Source: Escherichia virus TH11
Strand: one strand, 5' to 3'
DNA: 45,305 nucleotides
Sequence record: MT446389.1
Position numbers and translations under genes: made by a program. Of the stretch, positions 3,952 through 44,402 are shown in pieces. The notes under the pieces were generated by a model that saw nothing but the letters and a program-made list of their open reading frames with translations, had not been told where the DNA came from and ran no database searches. Numbering within the stretch: position 1 is the stretch's first letter; each line of letters begins with the position of its first letter.

Positions 3952-4033
3952 TGCCTGTTATAATCCCCTTAGATGGCAGGGCCGTCTCTTATGTTGCCGA
4001 TGGTCGGCGCATATGCACAAAAGGGCTTATATC

Positions 4034-4585
4034 ATGGCAGAAATTAAAGTTAAGGGCCGACGCGCCAAACTGGACGGACGAGTAGCAGTAACCCCGCGCC
4101 GTAAACCAGGCGAGCAAACCGAGCATACCAATCTCGGACCTGAAATCGAGTACGGCAAGCGCCGTAAAGGCGGCAAATGTGGACGCCCTACTGACTACAG
4201 ATCCGTTTACTGCGACCAGCTTCGCCGCTATTTTGCCGACGCCGACGCCTGGCAGGTCAACTACTCCGATAAAGGCGCTGCGCAAGTAATCCCCCGCAAC
4301 AAAATGCCAACCTTCGGTCGTTTTGCCGCAGAAATTGGCGTAGGCGTTGCCTGCCTGTACCGCTGGGCGCGCGCGCATGAGGAGTTCGCCGAGGCGATGG
4401 CGGACGCTATGGAGCTACAGAAAACTTTCCTGATGGAAGCCGGTGGCGTGACCATCGCGGCAGGCTTCGCTACGTTCCTGCTTAAGGCAAACCACGGCGT
4501 CCGCGACGATGTGCCGCTGGATGACGACGAAGATGATAACGGCGACGTCGTAGTGGAACCTACCGGCAAAGGCCAGGGTGAATAA
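4034..4585 (+). CDS. terminase small subunit
   Basis: Directly upstream of and coupled to large terminase (ATG overlaps stop); basic N-terminus, GRPTDY motif, acidic C-tail; start trimmed to MAEIKVK. Confidence 0.5.
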   Translation: MAEIKVKGRRAKLDGRVAVTPRRKPGEQTEHTNLGPEIEYGKRRKGGKCGRPTDYRSVYCDQLRRYFADADAWQVNYSDKGAAQVIPRNKMPTFGRFAAEIGVGVACLYRWARAHEEFAEAMADAMELQKTFLMEAGGVTIAAGFATFLLKANHGVRDDVPLDDDEDDNGDVVVEPTGKGQGE

Positions 4586-14702: not shown

Positions 14703-14730
14703 TGGGGCCAGCACGGCCCCTTTTTTTTTA
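14703..14730 (+). terminator. rho-independent terminator
   Basis: ggggcc-agca-cggcccc followed by nine T. Confidence 0.55.
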
Positions 14731-15108: not shown

Positions 15109-15422
15109 TTGAGGCGGCGCGACGCTTTTATGGTCCGCCGCCACCCTCCGAAGATTTAGCCGCAAGTTTATGGGGTGCGGCCCCCGAAGATGTTTGTCCG
15201 CCTGTTGCGCTATGGCCCGACAACGCGAAGATAGTCGCAGTCTTCACAGATTGCGCCACGCAATGGCGCACCGGATTTGGTGGCGCATACGGCATCGACT
15301 ACGGCGTGCTGGAGTGGTTATTTAAGATGCACGGTATCGAAAACGAGCAGCGCGCGTTTAAAGATATCAAGCTAATGGAACGAATCGCGCTTGATGAGAT
15401 GGCGCAGCAGAACCCCGCATAA
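14731..15422 (+). CDS. tail assembly chaperone GT-like fusion via -1 frameshift
   Basis: -1 frame stays open with no start codon from 15099 to stop at 15420-15422 (about 107 codons); slippery A_AAA_AAC at 15099-15105. Confidence 0.55.
15099..15142 (+). promoter_or_regulatory. programmed -1 frameshift signal
   Basis: Heptamer AAAAAAC in X_XXY_YYZ register; 7-bp stem GGCGGCG/CGCCGCC starting about 8 nt downstream. Confidence 0.5.
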
Positions 15423-15780
15423 TGCAGCGGGACGTCCCGTTTTGTCCCGCCTCTGTAAAACTGCATACCTACTCACACCCACTGCATAAACCAAAAACGG
15501 GACAAACGGGACGTCCCGATCTGTCCCGCCATGTAAATGTGCATACCTATTCAGATTTCGTGCATAAAGTAAGCGGGACAAAAAGCGGGACAAACAAGGA
15601 GCGGGACAAAGCGGGACAGCACCCCGTCCCCGCCAGTGCTGCCGCGGGTTGCGGCCGATCGGGACAAGCGGGACAAACCCCAGTCTTTCAGACTAGACGG
15701 GGGTCAATGGCCCCCCTCGTCTGAGACTGAATAAGGTTTGTTTTAAATTCGCTGATACAATGTCAATCGGCAACTGCATA
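15266..15780. repeat. tandem duplication unit 1 (515 bp)
   Basis: Identical to 15781-16295; track ORFs at +515 offset give identical translations; both junctions read directly. Confidence 0.85.
15426..15729. repeat. GCGGGACAAA repeat array copy 1 with terminal stem-loop
   Basis: At least 12 GGGAC(A/G) cores in both orientations, two GCGGGACGTCCCG palindromes, repeated TGCATACCTAYTCA and TGCATAAA, then GC-rich hairpin at 15680-15729. Confidence 0.75.
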
Positions 15781-16295
15781 GCGCACCGGATTTGGTGGCG
15801 CATACGGCATCGACTACGGCGTGCTGGAGTGGTTATTTAAGATGCACGGTATCGAAAACGAGCAGCGCGCGTTTAAAGATATCAAGCTAATGGAACGAAT
15901 CGCGCTTGATGAGATGGCGCAGCAGAACCCCGCATAATGCAGCGGGACGTCCCGTTTTGTCCCGCCTCTGTAAAACTGCATACCTACTCACACCCACTGC
16001 ATAAACCAAAAACGGGACAAACGGGACGTCCCGATCTGTCCCGCCATGTAAATGTGCATACCTATTCAGATTTCGTGCATAAAGTAAGCGGGACAAAAAG
16101 CGGGACAAACAAGGAGCGGGACAAAGCGGGACAGCACCCCGTCCCCGCCAGTGCTGCCGCGGGTTGCGGCCGATCGGGACAAGCGGGACAAACCCCAGTC
16201 TTTCAGACTAGACGGGGGTCAATGGCCCCCCTCGTCTGAGACTGAATAAGGTTTGTTTTAAATTCGCTGATACAATGTCAATCGGCAACTGCATA
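15781..16295. repeat. tandem duplication unit 2 (515 bp)
   Basis: Perfect copy of 15266-15780; junction caactgcata|gcgcaccgga. Confidence 0.85.
15941..16244. repeat. GCGGGACAAA repeat array copy 2
   Basis: Identical to 15426-15729 as part of the 515-bp duplication. Confidence 0.75.
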
Positions 16296-26162: not shown

Positions 26163-26384
26163 TTACCACTCCCGTGATTTAACTGATACCGTACCAGAGA
26201 AGTTGCCGTCACTATCGGCAGACAGACCAGTGAAGCGCATATCCACATCTCCGGCTGGCACTTTCTTCCCGTCGACGTAGCGCAACATGCAGCTACCGTA
26301 GGCAACCGTAATGCAATCGCCGTTGTTGCGTTCTACAGCACAACCGGACAACAGAACCGCACAAATCATAATTAAAGTTTTCAT
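26163..26384 (-). CDS. small lipoprotein, candidate superinfection-exclusion factor
   Basis: 73 aa from internal ATG; signal peptide MKTLIMICAVLLSGC with lipobox; RBS AGGAG; between RBP-type genes. Confidence 0.55.
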   Translation of the reverse strand: MKTLIMICAVLLSGCAVERNNGDCITVAYGSCMLRYVDGKKVPAGDVDMRFTGLSADSDGNFSGTVSVKSREW

Positions 26385-26438
26385 GGTATCATCTCCTATA
26401 TTTGGTTGAGTTTTAGTATTACACCGCTCGATCAAGAA

Positions 26439-31392: not shown

Positions 31393-31446
31393 CGTGTTGT
31401 CTCCAGGTATTAAAAAAGGCGTCCAAACCGGACACCCTTAAGATAA

Positions 31447-34366: not shown

Positions 34367-34406
34367 TTCTAAAATCCTCGATAGTGCTAACCGGCACACT
34401 ATACCG

Positions 34407-34685
34407 CTACGCGACCAATTCAGCAACCAATAAATCACAGTCGGCTATGTTGTCGATAACGCGAACGTCCGCACCGCGGCGGGCCATTCGTTCATGTTCA
34501 CGTACCTGGTGCGGCTTCGGTTTCCCACCTGGGCGCTTCACTTCGACGAACACTATTTTGCCGTTGATGATAATAATCAGGTCGGGCGCACCTGCGCGCC
34601 CCTCCCATGCCAGTTTTCGGCAGAATCCCCCAACGGCTTTAACCAGCTTCATCAGGTGACTTTGTATCTTGCCTTCTGGTGTCAT
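34407..34685 (-). CDS. VRR-NUC domain nuclease
   Basis: 92 aa with PD-(D/E)XK core GAPDLIII...VFVEVKRPGGKP...Q. Confidence 0.7.
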   Translation of the reverse strand: MTPEGKIQSHLMKLVKAVGGFCRKLAWEGRAGAPDLIIIINGKIVFVEVKRPGGKPKPHQVREHERMARRGADVRVIDNIADCDLLVAELVA

Positions 34686-34873
34686 TTGGTCTGCAACTCC
34701 ACGTTACGCAGACGAAGGTCTACCGGTATATCCGACCGGCCGGTTAGTGCCAGCGCCAGGTTTTCAGGCGTGACGAGTGCCGTAATGGTCTTGCCACGTT
34801 CCAGTCTAATGACGATTCGAATCTCGTCATTGTCCGTCGCGCCAGCGCGCATAATGCTCATTTCTGCTTTCAT
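34682..34873 (-). CDS. hypothetical protein
   Basis: About 63 aa from internal ATG (MKAEMS) abutting DNA polymerase stop. Confidence 0.35.
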   Translation of the reverse strand: MKAEMSIMRAGATDNDEIRIVIRLERGKTITALVTPENLALALTGRSDIPVDLRLRNVELQTK

Positions 34874-34877
34874 AATC

Positions 34878-37169
34878 TTACTTCCTGTACCTGTACATAA
34901 TGTCGCCTTCGGCGGCAAGTGGGAAGCCTTTCGCCCAAATAGGCAGGTCGCACATCAGCGCGCAAAGCTCCTCGGTCGTGTAGTCGTCGGTGTCCGGCAC
35001 TTCTGTGATCAATTCGTCGTGTACTGACAGGACGATTTCATATCCGGCAGCTTCAACGCCTGGCATGGACCATGCGAGAATATCGCGGCACAACGCCTGT
35101 ACGATGTTCTCCGTCAGTTTGCCGCCGTAGGTGTACTGGAAGCCCCACTGGCGCGTAGTCTGATTCTCGCCCTGGTATTTGATGCGGGTGCTGGTGCGCT
35201 TCTTGCCGGTGTCTTCGTCAATCTCGGTCGTGACCGACAGCGCGATGCCTGGGTAGCTCATGATGCGCCCGGACGGCAACTCAATTTTCAACCACCACCC
35301 AGCGGCGTTCGGGTCGTCGCGCTCCTCGTCGAAGGTTGGGTCGTGCTTCGCCTTCGTGCGCACAATCTTAAGCGCTTTCCTACCGTCCGGGCGAACGTTC
35401 GCGCCGGCCCAGTATGCTTTGCCAGGATTGCGGATCGCACATAACACCGCGTCCTCAAGCTCGGCCCAAAAGGCTACCGTCTTCGGGTGAGCCTCGCGCC
35501 ACATACGTTTGATTGCGTCACAAGTCAGCCATACGTTTTTCGGCAGTATGTATGTTGGGCGCTCGTCCTTCTTACCGGGCTTCGGCGGGCGCTTCGCTTC
35601 GTTAATGCGGGCGTACTCATAACCACGTTTCGCCGCGGCCCAAATGTGATCCGGGAACGTGCCTTTCATCACGTCCGCCATAGTGTAAAGGTCGAGGCCC
35701 AGGTTTTTAGCGAACTGCAAGAACGCCGCGACGCCGCCACCATAGCCCAGTCCCAATTCACACGCCTTACCGATCTGGCGCAAGTCTTTGCGGTTGGCTT
35801 TGATGTAATCCGGGTCAAGGCCGAACATCTTACCGGCAGTCTCGCAATAGATATCGCGACCGGCCTTAAACACCATTAGCGCGGTTTTCTCGCCCGCGAT
35901 CCAGGCAAGGCCACGCCCTTCCACGTTGGAGTAGTCCGCGACGACAAACTTCTTGCCCTTCGCCGGAATGATGCACCCACGAACGGTCGAGGCGGTCAGC
36001 TTAGATATGTCATACGCCCAGTGCGCGGTCCCGCGTAACAGGGAGTTGATGCCGTTGGTGAGCATGTGCGACCGCACCCAAAACGAGACGTCGCTCTCGC
36101 CTTCGCGGCGCTTAATCTTCCCTTCGTGGTCGTCGCTATACTCGCCGCGTGCCAGGTTTTGCGGCTGGAAGCCTTTACCTGCCCAGCGCAGCGTGCGCTT
36201 TGCACCACCATACTGAAGACACCCACGGCGGCGACCATCTGCGGATAAGCCATTAACGAGCGGATTGTACTTAGTCGAGGCCGTTGATGACGCGCCGAGG
36301 CGCATTTCGATAAGCGCTTTGCCTTCGTCGGGGAAGTCCGTGTCTTCAAGCAGGTCGTTAAGTGTGGATTTCTGCGCGTTGTGGATTGTGAACGCCGGGG
36401 CGATATCACGCAGGATTGGCAGGAAGTCATTGCCTGTCAGTTTACCACCAAATCGCTCCCAGGCTTCCTCCTTCAATTCTTCCTTATGCGCCTGCACCGC
36501 TTTGATCGCGGCGTTCGCCAGGTCAACGTCCACATAGAATCCGCGGTCGTTGATCAACTGGTCAATAAGCAGTATCTCGTCTTCCTTCGGAGTATTACCC
36601 CAGTCCGGTATGCGCCAGTAGACCTCACGCATCGCGATAATATCCAGCGCGGCATATCGCAGAAATTTGGCCCATTCTTCAGGGTGAGTCTCGCGCGTGT
36701 AGCGGCGTATTTTGTAGGTCTTAGGGGTAGGCTTACAGAATCGTTTGATCAGCGCCTTGCCTGCCTTATCCTTCGCGTGCTCTGCGTCAACGCCCAGCAC
36801 CTGACACTGCATATCGAGGCTACCCGGCAGCGCGTGCCGAAAGGCCATAATCATGGTATCTTCGATCTGGCACACTGGCAGGTCAATGCCCCACTTCTCG
36901 CGAATGACCAGGCGGTCAAACAGGAGGCCGTTAGCCATCACGATTTTTGCTTTCTTGCGGCATACCTGGCGGAGCGCCTTGCGCAGTTCACGCGGCATTG
37001 TTGGGGATTCAGTGGCATCCCATGTCTGCACGCGGCCCTCGTCGATGGCGTATGTGCAAATCATAATCTCGGTGGTTGGGTGCTCTGCGTAGGCGTACGC
37101 CCCTACTTTCTTCAGGTCAACCCCGCTGAATGTCTCGGTGTCGAGAAACAGGCGTTCGAAGTCTTTCAT
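34878..37169 (-). CDS. DNA polymerase, family A, with 3'-5' exonuclease domain
   Basis: 763 aa; Exo I motif FLDTETFSG; typical Pol I-like C-terminal polymerase region. Confidence 0.9.
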   Translation of the reverse strand: MKDFERLFLDTETFSGVDLKKVGAYAYAEHPTTEIMICTYAIDEGRVQTWDATESPTMPRELRKALRQVCRKKAKIVMANGLLFDRLVIREKWGIDLPVCQIEDTMIMAFRHALPGSLDMQCQVLGVDAEHAKDKAGKALIKRFCKPTPKTYKIRRYTRETHPEEWAKFLRYAALDIIAMREVYWRIPDWGNTPKEDEILLIDQLINDRGFYVDVDLANAAIKAVQAHKEELKEEAWERFGGKLTGNDFLPILRDIAPAFTIHNAQKSTLNDLLEDTDFPDEGKALIEMRLGASSTASTKYNPLVNGLSADGRRRGCLQYGGAKRTLRWAGKGFQPQNLARGEYSDDHEGKIKRREGESDVSFWVRSHMLTNGINSLLRGTAHWAYDISKLTASTVRGCIIPAKGKKFVVADYSNVEGRGLAWIAGEKTALMVFKAGRDIYCETAGKMFGLDPDYIKANRKDLRQIGKACELGLGYGGGVAAFLQFAKNLGLDLYTMADVMKGTFPDHIWAAAKRGYEYARINEAKRPPKPGKKDERPTYILPKNVWLTCDAIKRMWREAHPKTVAFWAELEDAVLCAIRNPGKAYWAGANVRPDGRKALKIVRTKAKHDPTFDEERDDPNAAGWWLKIELPSGRIMSYPGIALSVTTEIDEDTGKKRTSTRIKYQGENQTTRQWGFQYTYGGKLTENIVQALCRDILAWSMPGVEAAGYEIVLSVHDELITEVPDTDDYTTEELCALMCDLPIWAKGFPLAAEGDIMYRYRK

Positions 37170-41475: not shown

Positions 41476-41805
41476 ATGAATGTAAACGACGCAATCGAAA
41501 TGTTAACGAAGACTGTTTGCAGTGAGACAAGCCGGTCGTGGGCATACACCGATGCCGTGGGGGCTGTGTTATTTGAAATCGAACGACTGCGGCTTACCGA
41601 AAAAGAATTGCGCGCCAGGCTGGAACTACTCAACGGTACAGCAGCAAGCAAGCTGCAAAAACACAATGAAGAAATGGAAGAATACAAAAAGCAGGTTATC
41701 CGTTTGCGCGCCGAGGGTAAATCATGGGCGATGATTGCCGAGTTGACCGGGATTAATCAGAGCACAGTGCGCTCCTGGGTACGCAATAATAAAACTTCTA
41801 AGTAA
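41476..41805 (+). CDS. HTH DNA-binding regulator
   Basis: 109 aa; C-terminal KSWAMIAELTGINQSTVRSWV is a helix-turn-helix; first gene of rightward operon. Confidence 0.55.
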   Translation: MNVNDAIEMLTKTVCSETSRSWAYTDAVGAVLFEIERLRLTEKELRARLELLNGTAASKLQKHNEEMEEYKKQVIRLRAEGKSWAMIAELTGINQSTVRSWVRNNKTSK

Positions 41806-41815
41806 GGCCACGGCA

Positions 41816-44080
41816 ATGAGCTTGATTAAATTCGCTGTAACAAAACCCGCTAAAAAAGGCGAAAAAGCCAGGGCGGAAAACTTCCAGATGACGACCGATG
41901 AGTTTTTCGAATTTATCAAAGATGCGAAAGAAATCTCCTCGGTGCATATCAACAAGACGGAAGATAAAGCCGAGTATGCGCGCCGCAAGCGTAAGGCCGA
42001 TGGCATCGTGGCGTATACCAGTGACGGATTGCGTCGTAAGACCAGTGCGGTGGACCGCTCGATCCTGTTCTTTGATATTGACCGCACCGACACCCGCACC
42101 CTGCGCCGCTGCCGTAAGGCGTTCATCGACGCGGGACTGGAACATGTATTTCACACCACAACCGGCGACCGCCACCCGCTGAAAGGTGGCACGCGTTGCG
42201 CTCGTTTCCTGGTGCTCACCGACAAGCCTGTACCGGCGGAAGACCTAGGCCGCGTACAGTATGCACTGTTACACCAACTGGGCCTGTCAGATGTGGACTT
42301 CGATGATTGTACGAAAGACACAAACCGCCTTATGTACCTACCACACCAGCAGTCCGTTGTTAAGTGTCACTACGGCAAACGTGCCCGCGTCCGTCGTCTG
42401 CTTCGCCTGGCGGATAAGCTGGGAGTGGAAAAAGAGGAAGTACGACGCGAACTGACCCAGGGCGATGACGGCGTGGCTGACGGTATTCTGGATTGGTGCT
42501 TCCAGGCGGGATTCGAACCGCTGTCGTCCGGTCGTGGTTATGAAGTGCCATGCCCGAACGAACACCTGCACAGTGGTGAAGGGTCCACCGCTATCATGGT
42601 TAAGGATGGCGAGATCCGTTTCAAGTGTATGCATACCGGCAACGAGTGTTGCTCGGAGCTGAACAGACACCAGCACCTGGCGCTACGTCTTATCGGGATC
42701 CCGGACCACCTGAACGTCGAACCGCACAACATGTCACGTAAGCAAATCGCCGCCATCCTTCCAGGACTGGACGACGAGGAAGTGGAATCGTGCTATGCGC
42801 ATATCGTTGATGCGGTCGGAGACGGCGACGAGTACGGCGGATGTACAGATGCAGACCTGGACAACGAGCCGGTTGCGCTGTTCAGTAAGCACGACCCGAT
42901 CATCGAGGGGCTGATTAACTTCAAATCGACCTGGTATCTTGCTGGCGAGTCGAACATCGGTAAATCGTTCTACGTGCTGGGCCAGATGGCGTCAGTATCT
43001 GCCGGTATTCCGTTCGGCGGCGCGAAGGTCGTCCAGTGCCACAACTTCTATTTCGACGCGGAAGGTGGTGAAGCCTCCAACCAGCGTAAGGAAGCATTGC
43101 AGATCAAATATGAGCACGACCTGGACAAGCTGCACATTATCGATCTGCAGTCACGCGGCTGGGATATCACCAGCAAATCCGGCTTGCGTGAAGTTATCAG
43201 CTTTATCAACCGCACCGCTAACGGCGAGCCGGTTGGCCTGGTGGCGTTCGACTCACTCAACCAGACTGTCGCGTTGCGGTCAGCCGATGCTAAACCGTTC
43301 GACGAGAACAACGCCAGCGATATGGGCGAAGTGGTCAAAGCGCTGAAGGCTATTGCGGAAAACACAGGCGGCAGTGCGGGAGTCATCCACCACCCGGCGA
43401 AAGGTGCAAACGGCAGCAGATCTCCCCGCGGGTCCGGCGCGCTGCATGGTGCTGTCGATTCCGCGTTCTTCCTGGAGCAACCGGACGACAATCAGCCGGG
43501 CCAATTGAACCTGTACCATGAGAAGGCACGTAACGGCATCAAGCAAGCGCCGCGCGGCTTCGTCCTGCTTAAGTGCAAGGTTAAGGTGGATCTCCGCAAG
43601 TCAGAGGCGTTCGAATCGCACCAGTCCACCAGCACCGGGCCTGACTTCGGTGATGTGGTTGCAGGATGGGACGTCAAGCCGATCGCATCAACGCCACGCG
43701 ACGAGACTCTTTACCTCGTACCTGTCGCCCTGGCACCGTTCGCTATTGAGCAGGCGAAGGCCGCGGGTAAGGCAGCAGTTAAGGAAGAGAACCCCGCAGG
43801 ACCGCGCAACGAAAAAGAGAAAGTGCTTTATGCGGCGCTGGAAAAACTGATGGAAGATAACCCGGACCATACCGGATTCAGTAAATCGGCAATCGTCCGC
43901 CAGGCTGGACTTGCGAAAGGTGGCACATCGACGAAGGCAATAGACGATATGGTCGAGCGCGGCGTGCTCGGTTTCTATACAGATCCGCACACCGGGGCCA
44001 TCTATGGGTCATCGAATATCGTCATCAAAACGAATATACCCATCACGCTTTCGGCGACCGATGATGATTTAAAAGATTAA
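41816..44080 (+). CDS. bifunctional primase-polymerase / helicase
   Basis: N-terminal AEP-like FFDIDRTD, Cys/His zinc cluster, C-terminal Walker A AGESNIGKS and Walker B LVAFDSL. Confidence 0.8.
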   Translation: MSLIKFAVTKPAKKGEKARAENFQMTTDEFFEFIKDAKEISSVHINKTEDKAEYARRKRKADGIVAYTSDGLRRKTSAVDRSILFFDIDRTDTRTLRRCRKAFIDAGLEHVFHTTTGDRHPLKGGTRCARFLVLTDKPVPAEDLGRVQYALLHQLGLSDVDFDDCTKDTNRLMYLPHQQSVVKCHYGKRARVRRLLRLADKLGVEKEEVRRELTQGDDGVADGILDWCFQAGFEPLSSGRGYEVPCPNEHLHSGEGSTAIMVKDGEIRFKCMHTGNECCSELNRHQHLALRLIGIPDHLNVEPHNMSRKQIAAILPGLDDEEVESCYAHIVDAVGDGDEYGGCTDADLDNEPVALFSKHDPIIEGLINFKSTWYLAGESNIGKSFYVLGQMASVSAGIPFGGAKVVQCHNFYFDAEGGEASNQRKEALQIKYEHDLDKLHIIDLQSRGWDITSKSGLREVISFINRTANGEPVGLVAFDSLNQTVALRSADAKPFDENNASDMGEVVKALKAIAENTGGSAGVIHHPAKGANGSRSPRGSGALHGAVDSAFFLEQPDDNQPGQLNLYHEKARNGIKQAPRGFVLLKCKVKVDLRKSEAFESHQSTSTGPDFGDVVAGWDVKPIASTPRDETLYLVPVALAPFAIEQAKAAGKAAVKEENPAGPRNEKEKVLYAALEKLMEDNPDHTGFSKSAIVRQAGLAKGGTSTKAIDDMVERGVLGFYTDPHTGAIYGSSNIVIKTNIPITLSATDDDLKD

Positions 44081-44155
44081 ATTTTGCGCGCATTGGTTGC
44101 CGATATGGGAATTCCCATATCGCTAGAAGATTAAATTTTGCGCGCATTGGTTGCC
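44073..44155. repeat. direct repeat - palindrome - direct repeat element
   Basis: 29-bp direct repeat at 44073-44101 and 44127-44155 flanking perfect 20-bp palindrome gatatgggaattcccatatc at 44102-44121. Confidence 0.7.
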
Positions 44156-44213
44156 ATTTTGAGTGTTTTTATCTGGTCGTATTGGTTGCCGTGTAGTGTA
44201 AATATAGTGAATA

Positions 44214-44402
44214 GTTATGCAGTTTTATTGCATAAAGTAAGCGGGACAAAAAGCGGGACAAACAAGGGGCGGGACAAAGCGGGACAGCACCCCTGTCCCA
44301 CCCCGGATGACGCGGCCTGGAGAGGAGCGGGACAGGCGGGACAACCCCCAGTCTTTCAGACTAGACGGGGGGTCAATGGCCCCCCTCGTCTGAGACTGAA
44401 TA
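44214..44402. repeat. GCGGGACAAA repeat array copy 3 with terminal stem-loop
   Basis: Paralogue of 15565-15735 with a few substitutions; preceded by AT-rich stretch; hairpin at 44350-44398. Confidence 0.7.

What the first reader, a model, noticed from the sequence alone, without database searches (positions are those of the whole stretch)
15426..15729. GCGGGACAAA repeat arrays in three paralogous copies, each capped by a GC-rich stem-loop
Within about 300 bp there are at least 12 copies of a GGGAC(A/G) core in both orientations, two GCGGGACGTCCCG palindromes, and repeated TGCATACCTAYTCA and TGCATAAA submotifs forming two imperfect roughly 70-bp super-repeats. The array ends in the hairpin cagtctttcagactagacgggggtcaatggcccccctcgtctgagactg. 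The same architecture recurs at 15941-16244 (identical, via the tandem duplication) and at 44214-44402 next to an AT-rich stretch downstream of the primase-helicase gene. ORFs across the arrays are repeat-driven, so this is a non-coding protein-binding array. Possible roles are replication-origin iterons, a partition or packaging site, or a multi-site operator; none is established. This is my top candidate for undescribed biology in the window.
Basis: seen in the sequence. Interest (0 to 1): 0.8.

Follow-up and report, generated by a model that had tools for sequence, protein, structure and literature searches.

The report
Phage replication-origin repeat arrays (iterons)
The GGGAC repeat clusters are real, non-coding and conserved, and they are most likely the sites where the phage's own primase-helicase binds to start or control DNA replication, which is a familiar kind of element in a form not yet characterised.

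Summary
Of 36 CGGGACR sites in the window, 32 lie in three short stretches.

There are only two loci:
- Region A lies between the tail-chaperone and tape-measure genes.
- Region B lies just after the primase-helicase gene.
- The "third copy" is an exact 515-bp tandem duplication. It is absent from this phage's own GenBank record (Escherichia virus TH13, Dhillonvirus) and from its relatives.

Regions A and B are conserved in about 150 Dhillonviruses. The 2009 Sodalis phage SO-1 record already annotates them as repeat regions.

Main result: dense CGGGAC arrays also occur in unrelated phage contigs (46-69% GC), almost always directly 3' of a homolog of this AAA_25 helicase. In a sample chosen by protein alone, 24 of 77 homologs had a 6-mer repeated at least 8 times right after the gene, against 0 of 154 control windows. 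The motif changes by lineage along with a C-terminal helix.

TH13's C-terminus is predicted to be a winged helix. The most AT-rich 45 nt of the genome abuts region B.

Best reading (confidence 0.7): these are iterons of a replication origin bound by the helicase-initiator, as in SaPI Rep, P4 alpha and pRN1. Region A would be a second, late-region site, as with SPP1 oriR or P4 crr. Nothing has been tested biochemically.

The parts
15426..15729 (.). Region A, first copy: non-coding iteron array between the tail-chaperone gpT-like frame (stop codon 15421-15423) and the tape-measure gene
   Evidence: conserved in 153 phage records; annotated as 'region A' repeat_region in SO-1
15428..15449 (.). 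Iteron cluster 1 (+ - -): CGGGACGTCCCGTTTTGTCCCG. It is the left arm of a 21-22 nt inverted repeat with 15498-15518.
   Evidence: folded as DNA, z = -6.5
15450..15497 (+). Spacer 1 (42% GC) carrying TGCATA-N17-CATAAA (15462-15467 and 15485-15490)
   Evidence: read directly from the sequence
15498..15528 (.). Iteron cluster 2 (+ + - -): two iterons facing two inverted iterons with no spacer. This is the core arrangement seen in other lineages.
   Evidence: the same core appears
15529..15573 (+). Spacer 2, AT-rich (36% GC, lowest ~1% of 45-nt windows), with a second TGCATA-N17-CATAAA
15574..15675 (+). Core shared with region B: four direct CGGGACA iterons (15574, 15586, 15602, 15612), a degenerate inverted GTCCCC (15626-15631), a GC-rich spacer, then two more iterons (15660, 15669)
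   Evidence: iterons invariant and spacers variable in an alignment of 18 A and B copies
15681..15729 (+). GC-rich hairpin closing the array. The stem is invariant and the loop variable within the genus. No U-tract follows directly.
   Evidence: not called as a terminator
15781..16295 (+). Second unit of an exact 515-bp tandem duplication (first unit 15266-15780). It contains region A copy 2 (15941-16244).
   Evidence: junction absent from the eight best-matching records shown, including TH13's own
16268..16276 (+). TGaTACAAT, an extended -10-like element conserved downstream of the hairpin and ahead of the tape-measure start codon (16313)
   Evidence: invariant; the promoter role is inferred
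41816..44080 (+). Primase-helicase (754 aa), the proposed initiator: AAA_25 helicase core at residues 357-531, with PHROG primase and helicase-primase matches
43811..44026 (+). C-terminal domain (residues ~666-737) predicted to be a winged helix, the proposed iteron-binding domain
44197..44241 (.). The most AT-rich 45-nt window of the genome (24% GC, tied with 26363-26407), directly 5' of the first region B iteron. Candidate DNA-unwinding element.
44242..44343 (+). Region B iterons: four direct CGGGACA, an inverted GTCCC (44295-44299), then two more direct iterons
   Evidence: annotated as 'region B' in SO-1
44349..44398 (+). Region B hairpin, the paralog of 15681-15729

Best explanation
The CGGGAC(A) repeats are iterons, meaning short double-stranded DNA sites bound by the phage's own replication initiator. 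That initiator is most likely the 754-aa primase-helicase encoded just upstream of region B, acting through its C-terminal winged-helix domain.

Proposed steps:
1. Protomers bind the direct repeats.
2. Inverted pairs (+ + - -, for example CGGGACaaaCGGGACGTCCCGatctGTCCCG) nucleate opposed helicase assemblies.
3. The adjacent AT-rich stretch melts.
4. The helicase loads itself and its N-terminal primase primes synthesis for the phage DNA polymerase.

Region B is the origin next to the initiator gene. Region A carries more iterons and two iteron/AT-spacer modules. It is a second initiator-binding locus in the late genes. It could be a second origin, a cis enhancer like P4 crr, or an initiator-bound fork barrier like SPP1 oriR.

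Shown here: the repeat anatomy, conservation, linkage to the helicase gene, change of motif with protein lineage, AT-richness, and the predicted fold.

Inferred: binding, melting, helicase loading, and the specific role of region A and of the hairpin.
For: 1. Fourteen of 19 sequences compared (18 viral loci picked for dense CGGGAC arrays, plus this window) encode a homolog of this helicase, with the array immediately 3' of it. It is the only gene they share. Their N-terminal primase domains differ (Prim-Pol or Zn-ribbon+Toprim).

2. In a sample chosen by protein alone, a 6-mer occurred at least 6 times in the 490 bp after the gene in 32 of 77 loci, against 8 of 154 control windows. At 8 or more the figures were 24 of 77 against 0 of 154.

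3. Motifs differ by lineage: CGGGACA, CGGACA, CGTGACA, GGTTACA, CACCACA, CGTTGC and others. They track residues of a C-terminal helix: RKAF, RQA[WY], KTAW, KQRV.

4. Closer relatives behave the same way:
- 68% identity keeps CGGGAC and the hairpin.
- Salmonella phage SE1, at 52%, has GGGGAGA x6.
- Roseobacter phage CRP-701 has CGGACA with the same architecture.

5. An independent two-site layout: L131 has CTCGCAA iterons both after the helicase gene and about 10 kb away among the head genes.

6. TH13's C-terminus is predicted to be a winged helix.

7. The lowest-GC 45-nt window of the genome abuts region B.

8. Within the genus the iterons are invariant while spacers and copy number vary, and both orientations occur.

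9. Experimental precedents: SaPI Rep and its origin (PMC9371898), pRN1 (PMC4234260), SPP1 oriL/oriR (PMC6316719).
Against: - There are no binding or replication data for any member.
- TH13's C-terminal sequence shows no detectable homology to the 'RKAFxRA' C-termini of the distant CGGGAC phages (hhalign probability 0.6%). A shared specificity therefore rests on co-location, not on a shared recognition helix.
- The motif/helix correlation is confounded by phylogeny, because the groups are clades.
- Region A is 26 kb from the helicase gene. SE1 has no second array.
- GC skew follows transcription direction and does not mark an origin.
- More than half of the protein-first loci show no strong repeat right after the gene.
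- TGCATA-N17-CATAAA and the hairpin would also fit a small transcription unit.
Confidence: 0.7

Rival explanations
1. Transcriptional control cassette. The arrays would be multi-site operators for a phage regulator, for example the 109-aa HTH protein. The hairpin would act as a terminator or insulator, and promoters would sit inside and after the array. Together they would set expression of the tape-measure and downstream operons.
For: - Region A is bracketed by transcription-like signals: TGCATA-N17-CATAAA geometry occurs twice, and a conserved TGaTACAAT lies before the tape-measure gene.
- Region B precedes a promoter-like TTGCAT-N17-TATATT.
- Among close relatives the type of small HTH protein (HTH_23 or HTH_3) changes along with the repeat motif.
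Against: - The distant phages with CGGGAC arrays share no small HTH protein; they share only the helicase.
- The arrays sit at the 3' end of the helicase gene, not at its promoter.
- The hairpin has no U-tract and is not called as a terminator.
- A separate dispersed motif, TTGGTTGC, already looks like the promoter or operator element.
Confidence: 0.1
2. Transcribed structured or decoy RNA. A ~160-nt RNA running from TGCATAAA to the hairpin would display GGA-containing repeats to an RNA-binding protein, as a CsrA/RsmA-type sponge does, or would act as a 3'-UTR element.
For: - The core has the same orientation as the flanking genes in both A and B, starts at an invariant TGCATAAA and ends in a stable hairpin.
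- There is a weak Rfam PrrB/RsmZ match at 15603-15724: 17.7 bits, E = 0.063.
Against: - The Rfam score is far below the gathering threshold of 44, and nothing reaches threshold in the window.
- Apart from the hairpin, the core folds no better than shuffled sequence (z about -1).
- The motif is conserved in both orientations, with + + - - symmetry.
- Related lineages use motifs without GGA, such as GGTTACA, CACCACA and CGTTGC.
Confidence: 0.06
3. Packaging (pac/cos) or partition site bound by the small terminase or a centromere-binding protein.
For: Pac sites and centromeres are often arrays of short repeats.
Against: - Region A is about 11 kb from the small terminase gene (4013-4585).
- In other lineages the arrays follow the helicase gene, not the terminase gene.
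- The cos sequence reported for Dhillonvirus EE09 (PMC10673088) maps to 31435-31444.
- No ParB-type protein was seen among the nine proteins scanned, and these are lytic phages.
Confidence: 0.03
4. Selfish or structural repeat with no dedicated function: a recombination-prone repeat patch or small mobile element that duplicated from B to A.
For: - A and B are paralogous, with signs of patchy sequence exchange between them.
- Iteron copy number varies among relatives.
- The window carries an extra tandem duplication of the region.
Against: - The motifs stay invariant while the spacers drift.
- Both loci are kept at fixed positions in about 150 genomes.
- Equivalent arrays with other motifs sit at the same gene in many lineages.
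Confidence: 0.05

Closest known systems
SaPI (Staphylococcus aureus pathogenicity island) Pri-Rep-ori replicons
   Same: - A primase and an initiator-helicase, fused in PriRep5.
- A winged helix in the C-terminal domain recognises 5-6 nt iterons.
[quoted passage not shown]
   Different: - SaPI Reps are AAA+ helicases of the SF3 or MCM-like type. Here the helicase is RecA-fold AAA_25 (RepA/DnaB-like).
- There is no sequence homology.
- The arrays here often carry a GC-rich hairpin at the centre or the end.
- Dhillonviruses have a second array in the late genes.
Phage P4 alpha protein with ori and crr
   Same: - One polypeptide combines primase, helicase and a C-terminal winged-helix origin-binding domain.
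- Short iterons occur in both orientations at two separate loci (ori and crr).
- crr is built of two direct repeats that each contain iterons, like the two 78-bp modules of region A.
(From established knowledge; P4 is also discussed in PMC4234260.)
   Different: - P4 alpha is a Toprim primase plus SF3 helicase and is unrelated in sequence.
- The iteron is TGTTCACC.
- No solved-structure relative was found by sequence.
pRN1 ORF904 with its stem-loop origin (and Bordetella phage BIP-1)
   Same: - A small repressor gene, followed by a primase-helicase with a C-terminal winged helix.
- The origin lies directly downstream of the gene and includes a stem-loop whose structure, not sequence, is conserved (PMC4234260).
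   Different: - pRN1 lacks iterons and uses an SF3 helicase.
- Its stem-loop is about 100 nt.
- Here iterons dominate and the hairpin is 20-50 nt.
Bacillus phage SPP1 oriL and oriR
   Same: - Two similar repeat-plus-AT-rich sites bound by one origin-binding protein.
- One site is at the replication genes. The other is in an intergenic segment that interrupts the structural genes and is bracketed by transcription signals.
- oriR is proposed to stall forks and trigger the switch to concatemer synthesis (PMC6316719).
   Different: - The SPP1 initiator gp38 is separate from the helicase gp40 and its loader gp39.
- oriL lies inside gene 38.
- The sequences are unrelated.
SV40 large T antigen and papillomavirus E1 core origins
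   Same: Pairs of short sites in inverted orientation, next to an AT-rich tract, assemble two opposed initiator-helicase hexamers. This is an analogy from established knowledge.
   Different: These are eukaryotic viral SF3 helicases with a different origin-binding fold. The comparison is a mechanistic analogy only.

Membership tests
Iteron-type origin served by a cis-encoded initiator-helicase (SaPI Rep, P4 alpha, pRN1 type) | Cluster of short repeated sites (iterons), direct and inverted | tested here: met
   13-14 sites in region A and 7 in region B. 32 of 36 genome-wide CGGGACR sites lie in the arrays.
Iteron-type origin served by a cis-encoded initiator-helicase (SaPI Rep, P4 alpha, pRN1 type) | Array lies immediately next to (3' of) the initiator gene | tested here: met
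   Region B starts about 160 bp after the stop codon at 44080. The same position is seen in 13 other lineages and in protein-first loci. Region A does not meet this feature.
Iteron-type origin served by a cis-encoded initiator-helicase (SaPI Rep, P4 alpha, pRN1 type) | AT-rich unwinding region adjoining the iterons | tested here: met
   44197-44241 is the lowest-GC 45-nt window of the genome (24%). The region A spacers fall in the lowest 1-5%.
Iteron-type origin served by a cis-encoded initiator-helicase (SaPI Rep, P4 alpha, pRN1 type) | Initiator carries a sequence-specific DNA-binding (winged-helix) domain | tested here: inconclusive
Iteron-type origin served by a cis-encoded initiator-helicase (SaPI Rep, P4 alpha, pRN1 type) | Iteron sequence changes together with the initiator lineage | tested here: met
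   Lineage-specific motifs track a C-terminal helix. Caveat: the groups are clades, and TH13's own C-terminus does not align with them.
Iteron-type origin served by a cis-encoded initiator-helicase (SaPI Rep, P4 alpha, pRN1 type) | Initiator binds the iterons and replication starts there | not testable with these tools
   Requires EMSA or footprinting, marker-frequency analysis or a plasmid origin assay.
Iteron-type origin served by a cis-encoded initiator-helicase (SaPI Rep, P4 alpha, pRN1 type) | Helicase of the SF3/AAA+ class, as in the characterised members | tested here: not met
   The Pfam match is AAA_25, a RecA-fold RepA/DnaB-like domain. No PDB relative was found by sequence. So it works like these systems but is not a member of their protein families.
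Two-site origin (SPP1 oriL/oriR, P4 ori/crr) | Two paralogous initiator-site clusters, one of them away from the replication genes | tested here: met
   The A and B cores are about 90% identical. An independent case occurs in L131. SE1 lacks it.
Intrinsic (Rho-independent) terminator | GC-rich stem-loop followed directly by a U-tract | tested here: not met
   No terminator is called at either hairpin. The T-run starts about 9 nt after the stem in region A and is absent in region B.
CsrB/RsmZ-type sponge RNA | Match to the Rfam covariance model at the gathering score | tested here: not met
   17.7 bits against a threshold of 44. No family reaches threshold in the window.
pac/cos packaging site | Located at the genome termini or at the small terminase gene | tested here: not met
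   The cos sequence reported for a relative maps to 31435-31444. The arrays are 11 kb or more from the terminase genes.

The most novel reading that the evidence does not exclude
These arrays would mark a widespread and uncharacterised class of phage replicons. In this class a RecA-fold (SF4-like, AAA_25) primase-helicase is its own origin-recognition protein. A short C-terminal recognition helix would read lineage-specific heptamers, many of the form NNNNACA, arranged as two sites, a spacer or hairpin, and two inverted sites directly 3' of the gene. In Dhillonviruses a second, larger array inside the tail operon would act not as a simple origin but as an initiator-bound fork trap or cis enhancer that times the switch to concatemer synthesis or couples replication to late-gene expression.
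Probability: 0.3. Interest if true: 0.6.

Novelty: new variant of a known kind. Interest (0 to 1): 0.45.

Why it matters
Replication origins are unmapped for most of the small siphoviruses used as E. coli model and therapy phages, including the BASEL Dhillonviruses.

If the reading is right:
- It gives the origin of an entire genus.
- It gives a simple rule for finding origins in many uncultured phages: look directly 3' of this helicase gene.
- It provides natural pairs of recognition helix and iteron that could be used to study, or re-engineer, how initiators choose their sites.
- It offers a tractable E. coli system for asking why some phages keep a second initiator-binding locus among their late genes.

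It also corrects annotation. The "hypothetical proteins" called across the arrays in many GenBank records are probably not genes.

Tried and rejected
- Rfam at gathering thresholds found nothing. Permissive scans gave only sub-threshold hits to mir-606, snoZ188, P18 and PrrB_RsmZ.
- Folding the 170-nt core as RNA or DNA gave z about -1, so only the terminal hairpin stands out.
- GC skew follows gene orientation and gave no origin signal.
- A literature search for the motif returned noise. The Dhillonvirus papers I opened do not discuss the repeats.
- The truncated SO-1 note ("possible ...") could not be read in full.
- A C-terminal-only protein search returned a single fragment.
- Alignments A1 and A5 were too diverse for the search for related loci.
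Only one dense locus, L219, emerged.
- hhalign between the TH13-type and distant C-termini found no homology.
- A resemblance to the E. coli type I-E CRISPR repeat (GCGGGGATAAAC against GCGGGACAAAC) and G-quadruplex potential were considered from memory. I dropped both. The flanking C and AC are invariant, both orientations occur, and related arrays use non-G-rich motifs.
- T7-type primase recognition sites were rejected because the primase domains differ among phages that share the motif.

Full report
**Identity of the window.** The window is Escherichia virus TH13, genus Dhillonvirus. It matches GenBank MT446391.1 at 100% identity, rotated by 3914 bases. The record is flagged UNVERIFIED and has no annotation.

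**Observation.**
- CGGGACR occurs 36 times against 15.9 expected; none of 100 shuffles reached 36.
- 32 of the 36 sites fall in three stretches: 15428-15675, 15943-16190 and 44242-44343.
- GGGAC/GTCCC counts are 14, 15 and 7, in both orientations.
- The palindromes, the TGCATAC/TGCATAA submotifs (period 78 bp) and the terminal hairpin are all as described.

**The "third copy".**
- The second array is one unit of an exact 515-bp tandem duplication (15266-15780 and 15781-16295).
- TH13's own GenBank record lacks this duplication. That record instead carries a ~588-bp tandem duplication of window 34368-34956.
- The junction is not contiguous in any of the eight best-matching records shown, out of 158 that match.
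- The conserved biology is therefore two loci.
- Region A lies between the gpT-like end of the tail assembly chaperone (Phage_TAC_4 and DUF1799) and the tape-measure gene.
- Region B lies just after the primase-helicase gene.

**Conservation and prior notice.**
- Region A is found at more than 80% coverage in 153 phage records, nearly all Dhillonviruses.
- GeorgBuechner has exactly two clusters.
- The Sodalis phage SO-1 record annotates "region A" and "region B" as repeat regions of direct, inverted and palindromic repeats with mutual similarity. The rest of that note is truncated in the tool output.
- In alignments of 18 A and B cores and of 8 complete A regions, the CGGGACA units, TGCATAAA and the hairpin stem are invariant.
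- Spacers, the hairpin loop and the number of units vary, and single-base indels occur.
- This is the pattern expected of non-coding binding sites. The ORFs some records call there are probably spurious.

**Link to the helicase.**
- A pattern scan of viral contigs for two nearby GCGGGACA units recovered Dhillonviruses. It also recovered many unrelated contigs of 46-69% GC with dense CGGGAC arrays.
- ORFs were clustered across 19 sequences: 18 such loci plus this window. Exactly one family was widely shared. Fourteen sequences encode a homolog of the window's 754-aa primase-helicase, always with the array directly 3' of the gene.
- These proteins are only 16-23% identical to TH13's.
- Their N-terminal primase modules differ: Prim-Pol in L017, Zn-ribbon plus Toprim in L012, no Pfam match in TH13.
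- They keep the AAA_25 helicase core and a short C-terminal domain.
- No small HTH protein is shared.

**Protein-first control.**
- To remove the bias of choosing loci by DNA pattern, 80 loci were collected by protein similarity alone.
- In the 490 bp after the stop codon, a 6-mer occurred at least 6 times in 32 of 77 loci, against 8 of 154 control windows inside the gene.
- A 6-mer occurred at least 8 times in 24 of 77 loci, against 0 of 154 controls.
- The repeated word depends on lineage: CGGGACA, CGGACA, CGTGACA, GGTTACA, CACCACA, CGTTGC, CGGTGC, TGAGCAA and others.
- A common core recurs: two units, a short spacer or GC-rich perfect hairpin of unrelated sequence, then two inverted units.
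- Named phages behave alike. Roseobacter phage CRP-701 has CGGACA arrays with a central hairpin.
- TH13's closer relatives show the same rule. A 68%-identical helicase keeps CGGGAC and the hairpin. Salmonella phage SE1, at 52%, has GGGGAGA x6.
- A C-terminal helix co-varies with the motif: RKAF with CGGGACA, RQA[WY] with CGTGACA, KTAW with GGTTACA, KQRV with CGTTGC. The groups are clades, so this is suggestive only.

**TH13 specifics.**
- Residues ~666-737 are predicted as helix, strand, helix, helix and a beta wing, with pLDDT 81-87.
- No single match is strong. The TH13-type C-terminus is not detectably homologous in sequence to the distant "RKAFxRA" domains.
- The most AT-rich 45-nt window of the genome (24% GC, 44197-44241, tied with 26363-26407) directly abuts the first region B iteron. 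The two region A spacers are in the lowest 1-5%.
- Region A contains two modules of inverted iterons flanking such spacers. One forms a 21-nt inverted repeat (z = -6.5).
- The right half of region A is the paralog of region B (about 90% identity).

**Interpretation.** The anatomy matches experimentally defined systems.
- In SaPIs, a winged helix in the Rep C-terminal domain binds 6-12 penta- or hexanucleotide iterons immediately downstream of rep. There is an AT-rich centre and opposed iterons on each side (PMC9371898).
- In pRN1, the origin is a structure-conserved stem-loop just downstream of a primase-helicase with a C-terminal winged helix. A small repressor gene sits upstream (PMC4234260).
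- P4 alpha uses iterons at two loci, ori and crr (established knowledge).
- SPP1 has a second copy of its initiator sites, oriR, in an intergenic gap in the structural genes. oriR is proposed to stall forks and trigger the switch to concatemer synthesis (PMC6316719).
- An independent two-site layout occurs in L131 with a different motif. SE1 has only one array.

I therefore read the arrays as initiator-binding iterons of the replication system (confidence 0.7). Region B is the gene-adjacent origin. The exact role of region A remains open: second origin, enhancer or fork trap.

**Rivals.**
- Transcriptional cassette (0.10). Promoter-like geometry and a conserved TGaTACAAT before the tape-measure gene support it. 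The helicase linkage and the absence of a terminator call argue against it.
- Structured or sponge RNA (0.06). The Rfam RsmZ hit is weak. Two-orientation symmetry and the non-GGA motifs of related lineages argue against it.
- Packaging or partition site (0.03). The cos sequence reported for EE09 maps to 31435-31444.
- Functionless repeat (0.05).

**Novelty.** This kind of element, an iteron origin beside a self-encoded initiator-helicase, is well known, and the two Dhillonvirus regions were flagged in GenBank in 2009. I did not find the following described in any paper I could search:
- the association of such arrays with a RecA-fold AAA_25 primase-helicase family across many phage lineages;
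- the lineage-specific iteron words;
- the recurrent "+ + hairpin - -" core.

I rate it a new variant of a known kind, of moderate interest.

Noticed in passing
window, 21 sites, e.g. 9825/9838, 29784/29796, 31448/31465, 38237/38253, 44093-44189, 44464, 44555/44586: TTGGTTGC occurs 21 times against 1.9 expected. It is dispersed through the genome, mostly in pairs, and six copies flank region B. The 44555/44586 pair overlaps a good promoter-like TTGCAT-N17-TATATT before the 44616 operon. It is probably a phage promoter or operator element, distinct from the CGGGAC iterons. L129 has the same motif.
   Followed up: partly
window 15266-16295 and 34368-34956: The window and GenBank MT446391.1 (UNVERIFIED) differ by two tandem duplications. 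The 515-bp one exists only in the window. A ~588-bp one, covering window 34368-34956, exists only in the record. They could be assembly artefacts or real heterogeneity, and the raw reads are needed to decide.
   Followed up: partly
window 31435-31444 (- strand): The 10-nt 5' cos sequence ATCTTAAGGG, reported by PhageTerm for Dhillonvirus EE09, matches exactly here. The site is an AT-rich intergenic gap among early genes, next to a TTGGTTGC pair and a TGCATAA. That is an odd place for a cos site.
   Followed up: no
window 15462-15490, 15540-15568, 44211-44239: TG(C/A)ATA-N17-CATAAA occurs with promoter-like spacing in each AT-rich spacer of the arrays. TGCATA is not enriched elsewhere in the genome. 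The role is unknown: it could be an origin-associated promoter, a host-factor site or a priming site.
   Followed up: partly
window 14704-14720: A strong terminator-like hairpin, GGGGCCAGCACGGCCCC followed by T9, lies right after the major tail protein gene. It probably attenuates transcription into the chaperone genes.
   Followed up: no
L131 12313-12558 and 22100-22190: A phage whose helicase is 48% identical carries CTCGCAA iterons after the helicase gene. A second + + aatt - - cluster lies about 10 kb away, after a head-morphogenesis gene. This is an independent two-site layout with a different motif.
   Followed up: partly
L022 4563-6058; L219 10027-11508: Two high-GC (65-69%) contigs carry very dense CGGGAC arrays of 12-21 copies in several blocks. 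No recognisable helicase homolog or Pfam hit was found in the adjacent ORFs of L022; the L219 ORFs were not examined. Either a very divergent initiator is present or the same word has a different use.
   Followed up: partly
window 41476-41805 and relatives L129-L131, L126: The small gene upstream of the helicase is HTH_23/sigma-70 region 4-like in the phages with CGGGAC (TH13, L129). It is HTH_3-type in L130 and L131, whose repeat motifs differ; SE1 has an annotated 'DNA binding protein' there whose type was not checked. It may be the replication-operon repressor, like orf56 of pRN1.
   Followed up: partly
window 41816-42880 (N-terminal ~350 aa of the primase-helicase): Pfam finds no primase domain. 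The sequence nevertheless has an hhhDxD motif (ILFFDIDR) and a conserved Cys/His cluster (CPN..H...C.H..C), and PHROG primase families match weakly. This suggests a divergent archaeo-eukaryotic-type primase plus a zinc module.
   Followed up: no
L081 6664-6949: The CGGGAC pattern hit in this contig is a coding 15-nt tandem repeat (GCAGACCTGTCCCGC). It is a false positive of the DNA scan.
   Followed up: yes
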